DNA of 64,000 bases. Source: a virus (Duplodnaviria > Caudoviricetes). Positions 12,601 to 16,136 of the stretch are shown here, in pieces. The notes under the pieces are model-generated. The model saw only the letters and a list, made by a program, of their open reading frames with translations. It was not told the DNA's origin and did not search any database. The DNA lies in IMG/VR virus record IMGVR_UViG_3300009540_000001, positions 1 to 64,000 of that record; one strand, 5' to 3'. Every line of letters begins with the position of its first letter. The first letter of the stretch is position 1. A program made the position numbers and the translations under genes.

Positions 12601-12871
12601 TGTTCCGTAGTGCTCTAAGGGAGGCTGCGAGCCTCCCCAAGTTGAGGTTGTCCTTCCGGTCTTCATAGGCCTGGCGCCAGGTGGCCTCCGCGCAGGCTCG
12701 GGCCTGCGCGTCTTCCGCCCTCGCCGCCTCCCCGAGCGCCCTCTGCGCCTCTACTAGGCGGTCGTCCGCATCCAGCTCGCGAATGCGGCGCCGGAGCGCG
12801 CCGTGCGTGTAGGGGTTCTCCGGGGTCGAGGTCGAGGCGAACACAATGCAAGGCTTGTATGCGATGTTCAT
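12596..12871 (-). CDS. hypothetical protein
   Basis: SD AGGAG; has its own promoter. Confidence 0.65.
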   Translation of the reverse strand: MNIAYKPCIVFASTSTPENPYTHGALRRRIRELDADDRLVEAQRALGEAARAEDAQARACAEATWRQAYEDRKDNLNLGRLAASLRALRNS

Positions 12872-12908
12872 TGTCCTACTCCTTTAATGAGCCGTTTCTA
12901 CCCACTTC

Positions 12909-12938
12909 CTTATACCCTCCCCTCCCCCTACCTTTTTG
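12909..12938 (-). promoter_or_regulatory. promoter CAAAAA-N18-TATAAG
   Basis: Repeated architecture. Confidence 0.6.
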
Positions 12939-12940
12939 CT

Positions 12941-13648
12941 ATGCCCCGCCGCCCCATCCTCCCCCCCGCCCACGCCGCCTTCCTGAAACGCGCCTTCGAG
13001 CTCGACGAGCTCTCCAAGCGCATCCCGGAGGCGTCCCTCGGCGATAAGCCGGGGACCGTGCAGTTCAAGACCCCGAGCGGGCACACGGTGACCACGCCGT
13101 ACGACGCGCAGACGGTGACCCATCAGGTCAAGCGCCTGGGGGGTGTCGACCCGTACTACGCGAAGCTCAAGGCCACGCTCGAGGAGCAGGGGCGGCGTAC
13201 GGACCGGGGCGTCGAGCGGGACCGGACGCGCGCGGTCGAAGACCGCAGGTCCAGCAACATGGTCGGCGGCGGTACGCTCGGCGGCCTGGCGGGCGCCGGT
13301 CTCGGCGCGCTCGCTGGTCACTTCGCGGGCGGGCACGGGGGCGTCGGCGCTCTGGCCGGCGGCCTCGCGGGGGCGCTCGGCGGCGGGTACCTCGGGCACA
13401 ACGCCCACGTCGATCGTCAGAGCGGTCCGACGTCGCGGCGCATCAACGAGATCGAGGACCTGTACCAAGAGCCTGAGCACGTCAAAGAGACGCGCAGGAA
13501 CTTGGAGAACGTCAGGTCCGAGTTGGCGGCTGAGCGGTTCCAGCGACAGATGGACCGACACTTCGACCGGTGGGACCGGTATGACCGGTACGACAGCCGG
13601 TATCGGTACCCGGGGGACTTTGGGTATCGCAGCCCGCTGTTCTACTGA
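12941..13648 (+). CDS. glycine-zipper protein, possibly virion or membrane associated
   Basis: GGTLGGLAGAGLGALAG...GALAGGLAGALGGG; start reassigned to MPRRP. Confidence 0.65.
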   Translation: MPRRPILPPAHAAFLKRAFELDELSKRIPEASLGDKPGTVQFKTPSGHTVTTPYDAQTVTHQVKRLGGVDPYYAKLKATLEEQGRRTDRGVERDRTRAVEDRRSSNMVGGGTLGGLAGAGLGALAGHFAGGHGGVGALAGGLAGALGGGYLGHNAHVDRQSGPTSRRINEIEDLYQEPEHVKETRRNLENVRSELAAERFQRQMDRHFDRWDRYDRYDSRYRYPGDFGYRSPLFY

Positions 13649-13660
13649 GCCTTACGGCGT

Positions 13661-13712
13661 AAAGAAAAGAAGCCCGTACGCAGACGCCCCGTAAGGCGCC
13701 TGCGTACGAGCT
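13661..13712 (-). terminator. long-stem terminator
   Basis: GCTCGTACGCAGGCGCC/GGCGTCTGCGTACGGGC (G-U wobbles on the minus strand) followed by TTCTTTTCTTT. Confidence 0.75.
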
Positions 13713-13940
13713 CCCGCGCACAAGGCTCTGCGTCACGCCAGCTGTCGCGCCGCCACCCTCTACCGTACAGGGGAGTCGTACGCCGGCCGAGCCTCGAGCT
13801 GGTCCGGGAGAGCATCCGCGAACCCGGACACACAGCTCGAGGCGAGGTCGGACGGCCCCATTGTGAACGACGCGACATCGTTCGGGGCCATTGGGAATGC
13901 CCTCACCCAGGGACAGCTGGGAGGGTGAGGGCTGATGGGA
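13713..13940 (-). ncRNA. candidate structured ncRNA with long-range loop pairing
   Basis: Three strong hairpins; the loop of the first hairpin is complementary over 9 nt to a 3' segment. Confidence 0.6.
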
Positions 13941-13942
13941 GA

Positions 13943-14524
13943 TCAGTCGGCTACGACGCACCAGGCGTCGTCGTAGGCCTTCGCGTCACGGGCTTTCGCC
14001 CGGGCGTCCTCGAGCGTCCAAGTCTCGGCCTCGCGGTTCCCGCCCGCGAGGTTCGATACGAGGCGATAGGGTGCGAGCGCCGGGGCGGGCCCGGCGAACG
14101 CGAGGACCGCCACCACCACGTGGGTGGAGCCGACCTCCGTGAGCTCCCCGAGTTCGACCAAGTCGACCTCCGGGTCGTTACGGTACGCCTGCATCGTGTA
14201 CACGACGACTGCGACGCCGGCGACGGGCGCGGCGTGCTCCCGCTTCAGGAACGCCTCGCAGCGCCCCCGGTGCACGCGCACCACGTACGCCTCGGGGGCG
14301 GCCGAGCGCGGGCCGACGCCAGCGCTGACGAGGCCGATGCCCCCGGCGAGGGGTAGGAAGTACTGCCCCGGAACCTTGTCCGGGGTCTTGACGTCCGCCT
14401 CGTGTGCTCGGACCTGTTCCTCGAGCTTATCGAGGAAGGCGTCCCAGTCGAGAACTTTCGTCCCCACCGAGCGGACGTCAAAGGCCGAGCAGACCTTCGA
14501 AATCCCGAACTTCACGTTGTCCAT
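13943..14524 (-). CDS. conserved-looking hypothetical protein (weak DUF3228-like pattern)
   Basis: VVVYT..Y..DP, HVVVAVLA, P..PYRLVSNLAGGN, Y...W..VAD; strong SD GGAGGAG. Confidence 0.65.
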   Translation of the reverse strand: MDNVKFGISKVCSAFDVRSVGTKVLDWDAFLDKLEEQVRAHEADVKTPDKVPGQYFLPLAGGIGLVSAGVGPRSAAPEAYVVRVHRGRCEAFLKREHAAPVAGVAVVVYTMQAYRNDPEVDLVELGELTEVGSTHVVVAVLAFAGPAPALAPYRLVSNLAGGNREAETWTLEDARAKARDAKAYDDAWCVVAD

Positions 14525-14538
14525 TGTCCTGTCTCCTC

Positions 14539-14642
14539 CTCCGTTGTTTTCTATCCCGCCACGTAGGTACGGCGGTGTTCGAGGCGTTAAAGAAGGCGAG
14601 CGCTCCGTTGTTTTCTATACCGCCACGTAGCTACGGCGGTGT
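14539..14642 (-). repeat. two tandem 40-bp copies (3 and 4) of the leader hairpin motif
   Basis: 14539-14578 and 14603-14642, 2 mismatches, 24-nt spacer. Confidence 0.85.
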
Positions 14643-14915: not shown

Positions 14916-15680
14916 CTACCCACGGGCGGCCCGCGCTTTCGCGAGCTTCGCCGGGGCGGTCTGGCGCAGCAGCCGCGCCGCGAGCTCTGGGCTTGCGCCC
15001 AGCTGGATCGCGACGCGAACGCCGCGAGAGACGCGTTTGTAGTACGCGTCCTGCTTGACGCCCGAGGGCGGCGTCGTTCGGCCTTCGAACTTGCATTCGA
15101 AGGCTGCGATGAGCTGCGCGTAGCGAAGCGTCTCGCCCGGGCCCTCGAGCAGGACCAAGGCGATCATCTCTCGGCGCAGGGCGCTCTCGGCGCAACGCGA
15201 CTGCGCTGCGTCGACGCCCCGAAGGGCGGTCGCGATGGCGTCAATCGCTGCTTCGCGCCGGCGTCGCCACGCCGAGATTTGCGCGAACCTGACAACCTGG
15301 TTCGCGTATCCCCAGGGGCGGCGCGCGGCCTGCGCGCGCTCAACGACGTCTCCCGCTTTCGCGGGAGACTTAACTGCCAGGAGGTAGGCGAATAGCCTTC
15401 GCGCCTGGGCGGGTCTCTCGGCCCCGGGGGTGATCCACCCCAGGCCGGAGAGGGAACGCACGTTGCCGTGCGTCCGATGCTCGCGGCGCAGGATACGCCG
15501 CGCTTGGCACATGGTCGTGCCAGGCACAGCCGCCGCGACGGCGGCTGCGCTCAGAGGGTCGCGCGCAGCGCTGATCAGCGCGCGCACGGCGAGCGTTCGC
15601 TCGCTGGGCTCACCTGCTTTCGCAGGTGCCTCCTTGGCCGGGAAGGCGAAGGAGGATGCAACACCTGGTAGGGTGCTCAC
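14916..15680 (-). CDS. basic Ala/Arg-rich hypothetical protein, possibly DNA binding
   Basis: ORF bounded by its own promoter and a terminator-like hairpin. Confidence 0.55.
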   Translation of the reverse strand: MSTLPGVASSFAFPAKEAPAKAGEPSERTLAVRALISAARDPLSAAAVAAAVPGTTMCQARRILRREHRTHGNVRSLSGLGWITPGAERPAQARRLFAYLLAVKSPAKAGDVVERAQAARRPWGYANQVVRFAQISAWRRRREAAIDAIATALRGVDAAQSRCAESALRREMIALVLLEGPGETLRYAQLIAAFECKFEGRTTPPSGVKQDAYYKRVSRGVRVAIQLGASPELAARLLRQTAPAKLAKARAARG

Positions 15681-15685
15681 ATATC

Positions 15686-15714
15686 CTTATACCCTCCCCG
15701 GCTAAGCCCTTTCG
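15686..15714 (-). promoter_or_regulatory. promoter CGAAAG-N17-TATAAG, likely leaderless
   Basis: Repeated architecture. Confidence 0.7.
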
Positions 15715-15723
15715 GATTACCAG

Positions 15724-15768
15724 GTAAAGAGAACGCCGTCCGGAGCCTTGCGGCTCCGGGGGCGTTCC
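15724..15768 (-). terminator. intrinsic terminator
   Basis: ccggagcc-GCAA-ggctccgg stem followed by TTCTCTTTAC. Confidence 0.7.
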
Positions 15769-15776
15769 CTGGCGAG

Positions 15777-16136
15777 CTAGTTCGCGAAGGCGGGCTGGGC
15801 TTGCGCCAGCATCGCGTCCTCGAGGATCGCCTCTCGAACGAGGTCCTGGAGCCCGGCCGGCTGGAACATCTCGGACCCGTGAGACTTCCACATGGCGACC
15901 TCGGCCACGCCGAAGACGCCATAGACCACCAAGGCTCCGACGGGGCCCGCGACGATCTTCGCGGTCATCACGCACGCCGCCATCGGCAGCTGCGTGGCGG
16001 CGCCCCCGACGAACGCGGCCCCCGCCATCGCGGTCTTGGGCGCGTAGCCCTCTTGCCGCAGGTACCCGTAGGTCTTGCGGGCCACGGTCACGAGCAAGGC
16101 CGAACGACGCGCAACAAGGCTCTTCACAATGTTCAT
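15777..16136 (-). CDS. small membrane protein
   Basis: Hydrophobic central region; behind leader copy 5. Confidence 0.65.
   Translation of the reverse strand: MNIVKSLVARRSALLVTVARKTYGYLRQEGYAPKTAMAGAAFVGGAATQLPMAACVMTAKIVAGPVGALVVYGVFGVAEVAMWKSHGSEMFQPAGLQDLVREAILEDAMLAQAQPAFAN

What the first reader, a model, noticed from the sequence alone, without database searches (positions are those of the whole stretch)
13713..13940. Candidate ~230-nt structured ncRNA with a 9-bp long-range loop pairing
SEEN: the region lies between the stop of gene 13943-14524 and a strong terminator, with no credible ORF. P1 is a perfect 10-bp stem, 13899-13908/13923-13932. P2 is 13854-13859/13884-13889 plus an inner 8-bp stem that needs a G-U pair on the minus strand. 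P3 is a perfect 11-bp stem, 13791-13801/13833-13843, plus an inner 7-bp stem, 13802-13808/13823-13829. The P1 loop (CCAGCUGUC, 13912-13920) is perfectly complementary to GACAGCUGG (13738-13746) about 170 nt downstream. Most other intergenic gaps in this genome are much shorter. INFERENCE: a folded functional RNA (ribozyme, protein scaffold, decoy or antitoxin-like RNA). I cannot assign it to tRNA, tmRNA, SRP, RNase P, 6S or a known riboswitch.
Basis: partly seen in the sequence, partly recalled or inferred. Interest (0 to 1): 0.75.

Follow-up and report, generated by a model that had tools for sequence, protein, structure and literature searches.

The report
Conserved folded RNA after phage gene
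A 290-base non-coding stretch behind a gene of an uncultivated 172-kb sludge phage folds into three strong hairpins, a loop-to-tail pairing and a terminator, and it changes about four to five times more slowly than neutral sites next to it, so it is probably a functional RNA of a family not yet described, with its function still unknown.

Summary
The minus strand folds far better than shuffles: z -6.2 for 294 nt and -7.0 for the P1-P3 core. It ranks third of 918 windows scanned in the first 90 kb.

Rfam and ARAGORN give nothing. Two related Logan phage contigs, L002 and L077, carry the same element behind the same gene.

- **Conservation.** Synonymous sites of the adjacent gene have diverged by dS 0.49. 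The P1-P3 core differs at only about 8% of sites, while the 10-nt spacer before P1 is scrambled.
- **Structure.** Changes avoid paired positions (Fisher p 0.01). One pair in P2 and three in the terminator are compensatory.
- **Long-range pairing.** The distal partner GACAGCUGGC survives as an exact island in an otherwise diverged stretch.
- **Rejected.** TGA readthrough is ruled out. A 43-codon ORF is not needed to explain the conservation.

Best reading: a transcribed, selected, structured 3'-UTR RNA domain with a pseudoknot, of no described family. There is no transcript evidence, effectively only two lineages, and no function shown.

The parts
13943..14524 (-). Upstream gene: a 193-aa protein of a wide, unnamed phage family. 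The element begins 10 nt after its TGA stop.
   Evidence: ORF with third-position GC above 0.9. It has 261 homologues and no Pfam, PHROG, NCBIfam or PADLOC family. The AF2 model has pLDDT 95.6, and the nearest solved fold is 2pd0/4fbd at Z 9.6.
13933..13942 (-). 10-nt spacer between the stop codon and P1. It is not conserved.
   Evidence: Only 3-4 of 10 positions are shared with L002/L077, whereas the next 35 nt are identical.
13899..13932 (-). P1 hairpin: 10-bp perfect stem and a 14-nt loop, UCCCAGCUGUCCCU. It is invariant in all four sequences.
   Evidence: helix 1: 10 of 10 pairs never vary. The loop is 95% unpaired in the ensemble.
13912..13920 (-). 5' strand of the long-range (pseudoknot) helix, CCAGCUGUC, inside the P1 loop.
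   Evidence: Exact complement of 13738-13746. Duplex energy is -17.4 kcal/mol. The 9-mer occurs once in the 172-kb genome and its complement twice.
13852..13891 (-). P2 hairpin: 6-8 bp outer stem, 5-nt bulge, 8-bp inner stem with a conserved U-G pair, 3-nt loop.
   Evidence: One compensatory A-U to G-C change lies in the inner stem. The loop and the bulge vary.
13787..13851 (-). P3 long irregular hairpin: 4-bp base, 11-bp and 7-bp perfect stems, variable apical part.
   Evidence: All three changes inside it lie in the apical loops. Only the outermost pair of the 11-bp stem is lost in L002/L077.
13776..13786 (-). Invariant single-stranded tail after P3 (GGCCGGCGUAC). No partner established.
   Evidence: Identical in the window, L002 and L077. 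Its candidate pairings with the terminator arm or with the post-terminator motif are not kept in relatives.
13747..13775 (-). Variable linker 1.
   Evidence: Saturated divergence and indels against L002/L077.
13737..13746 (-). 3' strand of the long-range helix, GACAGCUGG(C): an exact 10-nt island of conservation.
   Evidence: It is the longest shared word of the two distal segments. A shared word of 10 nt or more arose in 0.4% of shuffles. It is unchanged in run X5, where six changes lie at 13715-13733. Spacing to the loop is 165 nt in the window and 166 nt in relatives.
13716..13736 (-). Variable linker 2, between the island and the terminator.
   Evidence: Diverged in L002/L077. Five substitutions and one insertion in X5.
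13659..13714 (-). Intrinsic terminator of the minus-strand unit: 20-bp stem-loop at 13669-13714 plus U tract at 13659-13668.
   Evidence: Three compensatory pairs and two G-C/G-U changes across relatives, and every wobble pair is valid only on the minus strand.
13650..13664 (.). Palindromic CTTTAC-N3-GTAAGG site overlapping the end of the U tract. It is a dispersed motif of this phage.
Evidence: Conserved in L002/L077 with one change in the N3 spacer.
13760..13891 (-). 43-codon ORF overlapping P2-P3. It was called as a gene in the source record and is probably not protein-coding.
   Evidence: It stays open (42 codons) in L002, with dS 0.13-0.16 and dN/dS 0.6, similar to an alternative frame. 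The protein collection holds no homologue other than itself.
12803..13648 (+). Convergent neighbour, a glycine-zipper protein. It ends just past the terminator and is not part of the element.
   Evidence: It is largely deleted in L002, where the element is kept.

Best explanation
The 294-nt gap is the 3' untranslated part of the minus-strand unit that encodes the 193-aa protein. It is transcribed as one structured RNA domain: hairpins P1, P2 and P3, an invariant 11-nt tail, and a 9-bp pairing between the P1 loop and a site about 165 nt downstream. That pairing closes P2 and P3 into an H-type pseudoknot. About 22 nt further on comes a strong intrinsic terminator.

What I infer, without having shown it: the fold makes a compact, nuclease-resistant 3' domain. 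It either stays on the mRNA or survives as a stable RNA of about 290 nt, and it is read by a sequence-specific partner. The reason for a partner is that the stems are conserved in sequence, not only in pairing.

Shown here: the anatomy, the folding excess, the purifying selection, the structure-respecting pattern of substitutions, and the absence from known families. Inferred: transcription (a terminator works only if the polymerase has crossed the element), formation of the pseudoknot, and the function.
For: 1. **Folding.** z is -6.2 for the whole gap and -7.0 for the core. It ranks third of 918 windows after GC correction. The L002 copy folds on its own into the same architecture, z -6.0.
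2. **Selection.** The adjacent gene has dS 0.49 between the window and L002. The core shows 13 differences in about 155 nt. The 10-nt spacer before P1 and both distal linkers are scrambled.
3. **Structure.** In the core, 4 of 100 paired positions changed, against 8 of 46 unpaired ones (p 0.01). Two of those four form a compensatory pair. Over four sequences, 99.2% of cells pair, against 38-48% when the partners are slid by 1-3 columns.
4. **Contrast with the terminator.** The terminator stem shows what structure-only constraint looks like at this divergence: three compensatory and two wobble changes in 20 pairs. P1-P3 show one change in 42 pairs.
5. **Long-range pairing.** The chance of a 9-nt complement is 0.004. 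The island shared with relatives has a chance of 0.004 and is also kept in X5. Duplex energy is -17.4 kcal/mol, and the loop is 95% accessible.
6. **Strand.** The terminator has its U tract only on the minus strand, and its wobble pairs are valid only there. P2 keeps a U-G pair in all four sequences.
7. **Independence of flanks.** The element is kept in L002 although the convergent gene is largely deleted there. In run X4, sequence nearly identical to the window's P1-side end is followed upstream of 13939 by unrelated sequence (short low-depth contigs, a weak hint).
Against: - The tools gave no way to test for a transcript.
- There are effectively only two lineages: the window type and the L002/L077/L078 type. 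P1-P3 carry a single compensatory pair, and the pseudoknot helix carries none.
- The core folds equally well on the plus strand, so DNA-level or plus-strand roles are not excluded by energy.
- An open 43-codon frame with 81% GC at third positions and an SD-like GAGGG 9 nt upstream overlaps P2-P3.
- A 9-bp helix inside a 14-nt loop leaves only 2- and 3-nt connectors. This may be sterically strained, so perhaps only part of it forms (my own reasoning, not computed).
- Sequence identity of the core to L002, 87-91% in 100-nt windows, is high but not unique within the locus. Several coding stretches reach 90-98%.
Confidence: 0.5

Rival explanations
1. It is a 3'-UTR-derived trans-acting small RNA. 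The conserved island GACAGCUGGC, about 22 nt upstream of the terminator hairpin, is a seed. The terminator supplies the 3' end. The complementary P1 loop is an internal anti-seed or sponge, or P1-P3 are simply what remains after processing.
For: The pattern 'short exact island, variable linker, terminator kept by compensation, U tract' is the usual conservation signature of 3'-UTR sRNAs, from general knowledge. The island is 77% unpaired in L002 and 78% in L077.
Against: The only good complement in the phage genome is the P1 loop itself. This reading does not explain why the 160 nt of P1-P3 are even better conserved than the supposed seed. No processing site or internal promoter was found. In the window the island is only 35% unpaired.
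Confidence: 0.15
2. It is a plain stack of stabilising or insulating hairpins between two convergent units. These would block 3' exonucleases and stop polymerases arriving from either side. There would be no higher-order fold and no specific partner.
For: It lies between convergent genes. The hairpins fold on both strands. The plus-strand gene has no U-tract terminator of its own. Other intergenic spots of this phage are also strongly folded, for example 15580-15790 at z -5.7.
Against: None of P1-P3 is followed by a U tract on either strand. If pairing alone mattered, the stems should have drifted by compensation as the terminator did. They are nearly invariant, and so are the 14-nt P1 loop and its distal complement. 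The element persists in L002 without the convergent gene.
Confidence: 0.1
3. It is a DNA-level element. The inverted repeats would serve as protein-binding sites or extruded hairpins, for example at a replication origin or a recombination site. The two CAGCTG-centred 9-mers would be paired binding sites.
For: Both strands fold equally in the core. Both 9-mers contain the palindrome CAGCTG. Stem sequences are conserved beyond what pairing needs. A helicase gene lies 4 kb away.
Against: There are no iterons and no direct repeats of 9 nt or more. I saw no AT-rich stretch apart from the terminator's U tract. The three palindromes are unrelated to each other, and the 9-mer is not dispersed in the genome. 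The conserved U-G pair in P2 would be a mismatch in DNA. The element sits inside a transcription unit that ends in a minus-strand terminator.
Confidence: 0.08
4. It is a small protein gene of 43 aa, 13760-13891 on the minus strand. P1 would be a translational control hairpin that sequesters the SD-like GAGGG.
For: The ORF was called in the source record. It is open in L002 at 42 codons, with the ATG and GAGGG kept. Third-position GC is 81%. The conserved block ends about where the ORF ends.
Against: dS within the ORF is 0.13-0.16, against 0.49 next door, so constraint at the nucleotide level is needed in any case. dN/dS of 0.6 matches the 0.68 of an alternative frame. P1 lies outside the ORF and is the best-conserved part. 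An open frame of 43 codons at 67% GC has a chance of about 0.37 (my own estimate). The collection of 5.8 billion clusters holds no homologue. L002 and L077 have no gene call there.
Confidence: 0.07
5. There is no function. The block would be neutral sequence that looks conserved only because it was recently exchanged between the two phage lineages.
For: Phage genomes are mosaic. Identity to L002 ranges from 39% to 98% along the locus.
Against: Recombination breakpoints would have to fall exactly at the base of P1, after the P3 tail, and on both sides of the 10-nt island. Unconstrained spacers between them are saturated. The substitutions that did occur avoid paired positions.
Confidence: 0.05

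Closest known systems
3'-UTR-derived bacterial and prophage small RNAs that share the parent mRNA's intrinsic terminator
   Same: It lies directly behind a stop codon and ends in the gene's own terminator. It has a short exact conserved island upstream of a terminator hairpin that drifts by compensation.
   Different: Here the largest and best-conserved part is a 160-nt three-hairpin domain upstream of the island. The island's only clear complement lies inside that domain. No processing, chaperone or target is known.
P1/P7 c4 and P4 CI antisense RNAs (phage immunity RNAs whose loops pair with sites on the same transcript)
   Same: A hairpin loop is complementary to a short site on the same transcript, within a small regulatory operon.
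   Different: Rfam gave no match for the region. In the known systems, from general knowledge, the target sites control genes that lie further downstream. Here the site lies in front of a terminator with no gene behind it.
Lambda sib and T7 RNase III sites (3' hairpins that decide mRNA fate)
   Same: There are long, imperfect GC-rich hairpins at the 3' end of a phage message. P3 has about 22-25 bp, which is the size of an RNase III substrate.
   Different: Those are single hairpins with no conserved loop and no long-range pairing. No cleavage evidence exists here.
Exoribonuclease-resistant RNAs (xrRNA) of flaviviruses and plant viruses
   Same: It is a 3'-UTR domain in which an apical loop pairs with downstream sequence to close a multi-helix fold.
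   Different: No sequence or model match. The defining ring around the 5' end cannot be assessed from sequence. The bacterial nucleases involved would be different ones.
Intrinsic (Rho-independent) terminators
   Same: The last hairpin (13669-13714 plus the U tract) is a textbook example.
   Different: P1, P2 and P3 have no U tract on either strand, so they are not terminators of this type.

Membership tests
Any Rfam 15 family (4227 covariance models, including tRNA, tmRNA, RNase P, 6S, SRP, riboswitches, ribozymes, group I/II introns) | Covariance-model score at or above the family's gathering threshold | tested here: not met
   E-value mode up to 10 over 13400-14200. The best hits are miRNA-precursor models on the terminator hairpin (24 bits against a threshold of 78). 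Nothing fell on P1-P3. ARAGORN found no tRNA or tmRNA in the window.
Intrinsic terminator | GC-rich stem-loop followed at once by a U tract on the transcribed strand | tested here: met
   Met only by the hairpin at 13669-13714 on the minus strand. P1-P3 are followed by AUUCCC, GUCCGA and UCGGCC, so they do not meet it.
Type III toxin-antitoxin RNA antitoxin (ToxI-like) | Tandem direct repeats of the antitoxin unit | tested here: not met
   No direct repeat longer than 8 nt in 13600-14000.
Type III toxin-antitoxin RNA antitoxin (ToxI-like) | Adjacent endoribonuclease toxin of a known family | tested here: inconclusive
   The 193-aa protein has no PADLOC, Pfam or NCBIfam match. Structural resemblance to RelE/ParE-type toxins is only weak, Z 3-3.6. 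None of the 20 other family loci compared has the element.
Programmed TGA readthrough or SECIS-type recoding of the 193-aa gene | The in-frame extension behind the stop is kept in relatives | tested here: not met
   The window has an open in-frame extension of 61 codons. In L002/L077 a 1-nt insertion between P1 and P2 shifts the frame. Most listed family members are close to 190 aa.
Small protein-coding gene | Purifying selection on the protein (dN/dS well below that of other frames) and homologues elsewhere | tested here: inconclusive
   dN/dS is 0.6, against 0.68 in an alternative frame, with few substitutions. No homologue other than itself.
3'-UTR-derived sRNA | Shares the mRNA's terminator and has a conserved single-stranded seed upstream of it | tested here: met
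   Anatomy and the conservation island.
3'-UTR-derived sRNA | A discrete short RNA species made by processing or from an internal promoter, and a trans target | not testable with these tools
   No RNA run holds the stretch. No sigma-70-like promoter was found. The host is unknown.
H-type pseudoknot | Hairpin-loop nucleotides pair with a sequence outside the hairpin, and the pairing is supported by covariation or probing | tested here: inconclusive
   Complementarity is exact and conserved. The nine pairs never vary, so there is no covariation.

The most novel reading that the evidence does not exclude
The three hairpins and the loop-to-tail pseudoknot form a closed, knot-like fold that stalls a host exoribonuclease. 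Decay of the abundant 193-aa mRNA would then leave a stable non-coding RNA of about 290 nt. That RNA would in turn bind or titrate a host factor. This would be a phage counterpart of the flaviviral xrRNA/sfRNA strategy, or more generally a new phage RNA that works as an RNP or a decoy.
Probability: 0.07. Interest if true: 0.85.

Novelty: new variant of a known kind. Interest (0 to 1): 0.45.

Why it matters
Structured RNAs of large uncultivated phages are barely charted. This element has evidence beyond a good fold. It evolves at about a quarter to a fifth of the local neutral rate. Its substitutions respect the helices. Its long-range loop pairing is preserved as an island in scrambled sequence.

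If it proves to be a stable RNA with a specific partner, it would add a new phage RNA family and a tractable 230-nt fold with a pseudoknot for structural work. If it only stabilises its message, it is still a clean case of a sequence-constrained 3' UTR in a phage.

The limits are real. The host is unknown, there are only two lineages, and there are no expression data.

Tried and rejected
- **Pattern scans for more homologues.** All hits were chance matches without the flanking hairpin or any further similarity.
  - 16-mer and 19-mer in viral contigs.
  - 18-mer in JGI metagenome contigs: 27 hits.
  - Loop-N(140-170)-island pattern in 185,579 species genomes and in viral contigs: 17 and 2 hits.
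- **Phage GenBank records.** blastn found no match.
- **Protein-guided search.**
  - The single 193-aa protein and the 1306-aa neighbour found no relative in IMG/VR.
  - The family alignment gave 18 IMG/VR loci. I compared 16 of them, together with L003, L004, L038 and L039 from ENA/Logan, with the element by blastn. None matched.
  - The distant homologue of the convergent gene (L079/L080) has no gap at all.
- **Expression.** No RNA holder is listed for the stretch.
- **Relatives of a virus record.** They are not drawn by the genome search.
- **Other pairings.** Three were rejected because L002/L077 do not keep them: a distal mimic of the P1 3' arm (13749-13760), an anti-terminator pairing of 13776-13787 with 13698-13709, and pairing of the P3 tail with the post-terminator palindrome.
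- **Second genomic copy of GACAGCTGG.** The copy at 165665 lies inside overlapping open frames and has nothing telling around it.
- **ESM Atlas look-up of the 193-aa protein.** No usable lead.
- **Nested alternative fold.** A fold with the long-range helix formed and P1 opened costs only about 6 kcal/mol in both lineages. This is noted but not interpreted as a switch.
- **Covariance model.** None was built. With two lineages at about 92% identity it would add little over blastn.

Full report
**Setting.** The window is the first 64 kb of a 172,374-bp IMG/VR phage record with direct terminal repeats and about 66% GC. The same sequence is held by activated-sludge runs.

The finding lies in the 294-nt gap 13649-13942 between two convergent genes.
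- The 193-aa gene at 13943-14524 (-) has third-position GC above 0.9.
- The glycine-zipper gene at 12803-13648 (+) is the convergent neighbour.

ViennaRNA predicts the same picture on the minus strand.
- P1 has 10 bp and a 14-nt loop.
- P2 has 8 + 8 bp with a 5-nt bulge.
- P3 is a 65-nt irregular hairpin.
- The 3' end is a 20-bp terminator hairpin followed by UUUUCUUU.

Folding is well above chance.
- z is -6.2 for the whole gap and -7.0 for the 183-nt core.
- In a 294-nt sliding scan of the first 90 kb, regressed on GC, only 2 of 918 windows fold better on the minus strand.
- The plus strand of the core folds about as well. Energy therefore does not decide the strand.

**Known families.** Rfam 15 in E-value mode gave only sub-threshold miRNA-type hits on the terminator hairpin, and ARAGORN found nothing. 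There are no tandem or direct repeats, and the genome holds no second copy.

**Relatives.** The 193-aa protein belongs to a wide unnamed family with 261 hits. Its closest member, P0002 at 63% identity, lies on a syntenic Logan contig, L002. A near-identical protein, P0122, lies on L077 and L078. All three carry the element directly behind the gene (alignment A4).

None of the 20 other family loci that I compared by blastn has it. In the two whose gene calls I saw (L038, L039), the next gene follows within 12 nt. The element is therefore specific to one lineage and is not a partner of the protein family.

Nucleotide pattern scans of viral, metagenome and genome collections returned only chance matches.

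**Selection.** Between the window and L002 the locus is 77% identical on average. Synonymous sites in the last 72 codons of the adjacent gene have diverged by dS 0.49.

The pattern along the gap is sharp.
- The 10 nt between the stop codon and P1 are scrambled.
- The next 35 nt, all of P1, are identical.
- The whole P1-P3 core has 13 differences in about 155 nt.
- The 11-nt tail after P3 is identical.
- After that, identity collapses except for an exact 10-mer, GACAGCTGGC.

A recent recombination block cannot explain this without breakpoints at every structural boundary.

**Structure-aware pattern.** I used the window's own MFE structure, which does not depend on the relatives. In the core, 4 of 100 paired positions changed, against 8 of 46 unpaired ones (Fisher p 0.01). 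Two of the four form an A-U to G-C compensatory pair in P2, and the other two are terminal pairs.

Over the four sequences, 99.2% of cells form standard pairs, against 38-48% when the 3' partners are slid by 1-3 columns.

The terminator serves as an internal control for constraint on structure alone. It has three compensatory pairs and two G-C/G-U switches in 20 pairs, all valid only on the minus strand. P1-P3 show one change in 42 pairs. Their sequence, not just their pairing, is therefore under constraint.

**The long-range pairing.**
- A perfect complement of 9 nt or more between an unpaired core segment and the distal 65 nt arose in 0.4% of dinucleotide shuffles.
- The distal partner is exactly the island that survives in the diverged part. 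A shared word of 10 nt or more arose in 0.4% of shuffles.
- Run X5 has six changes at 13715-13733 and none in the island.
- Neither 9-mer is a dispersed motif of the genome.
- Duplex energy is -17.4 kcal/mol, the loop is 95% unpaired, and the loop-to-island spacing is 165 or 166 nt.
- The nine pairs never vary, so there is no covariation for or against the helix.

**Coding alternatives.** The in-frame extension behind the TGA is open in the window. It is shifted by a 1-nt insertion in L002/L077, so readthrough is rejected.

A 43-codon ORF at 13760-13891 (-) was called in the source record and stays open in L002. Three results argue against it.
- Its synonymous sites are 3-4 times less diverged than those next door: dS 0.13-0.16 against 0.49.
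- Its dN/dS of 0.6 equals that of another frame.
- It has no homologue other than itself.

P1, the most conserved part, lies outside this ORF. Constraint at the nucleotide level is therefore required in any case, and the ORF adds nothing.

**Strand and transcription.** These are inferred. The terminator works only on the minus strand, and it can act only if the polymerase has crossed P1-P3. So the element is part of the minus-strand transcript of the 193-aa gene. No RNA run holds the stretch, so this stays untested.

**Independence of the flanks.**
- L002 keeps the element although the convergent gene is mostly deleted there.
- In run X4, a contig identical to 13698-13848 and another with one difference over 13870-13939 are followed upstream of 13939 by unrelated sequence. 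These are short, low-depth contigs, so this is only a hint.

**The upstream protein.** The AF2 model is confident at pLDDT 95.6. Its only clear structural relative is the apicomplexan hypothetical protein 2pd0/4fbd, at Z 9.6. The paper PMC3892921 describes that protein as having no functional clues from standard methods. Resemblances to RelE/ParE-type RNases at Z 3-3.6 are too weak to use.

**Verdict.** This is a real, selected, structured non-coding element. It is most likely an RNA domain forming the 3' UTR of the 193-aa gene, with a probable pseudoknot. It belongs to no described family, and its function is open.

I put about 0.5 on a cis 3'-domain or stable RNA with a specific partner. The rest is spread over a seed-bearing 3'-UTR sRNA, a plain hairpin insulator, a DNA-level site, a small ORF and neutral mosaicism.

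Noticed in passing
L003:4600-5160 and L004:2380-2830: Behind a 54%-identical homologue of the 193-aa gene lies a different long non-coding stretch of 460-575 nt. It holds a hairpin, 3-5 tandem copies of a 15-nt unit (CTGAACGGGTAGCCM) and 2-3 copies of a unit of about 62 nt ending in GTTAGGGGTTGGGAGGG. Copy numbers differ between the two contigs.
   Followed up: no
window 15387-15778; also 981-1372 and 1471-1764: These are other windows with exceptional folding energy for their GC content. The gap 15580-15790 (-) has z -5.7 and holds a terminator ending in CUUUAC-N3-GUAA plus several further hairpins.
   Followed up: partly
window 13650-13664: The palindromic site CTTTAC-GCC-GTAAGG overlaps the end of the terminator U tract. 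L002 and L077 keep it, with a change only in the 3-nt spacer.
   Followed up: partly
L002:3389-3465 against window 12803-13648: In L002 the convergent glycine-zipper gene is almost wholly deleted. Only its last few codons and a 49-nt piece (about 90% identical to window 12902-12950) remain. L077 keeps a 236-aa version that is 70% identical.
   Followed up: partly
window 13943-14524 (-): The 193-aa protein belongs to a large unnamed family found in big phage contigs of 50-400 kb. Its confident model (pLDDT 95.6) resembles only the apicomplexan structural-genomics proteins 2pd0 and 4fbd (Z 9.6).
   Followed up: partly
whole genome G000: CTCGAG occurs 278 times against about 59 expected from base composition, and CAGCTG 89 times against 59. 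CTCGAG is part of the P3 stem.
   Followed up: no
window 14515-14588: The leader directly upstream of the 193-aa gene is 94.6% identical to L002 over 74 nt, inside an intergenic region that is otherwise only 39-68% identical.
   Followed up: no
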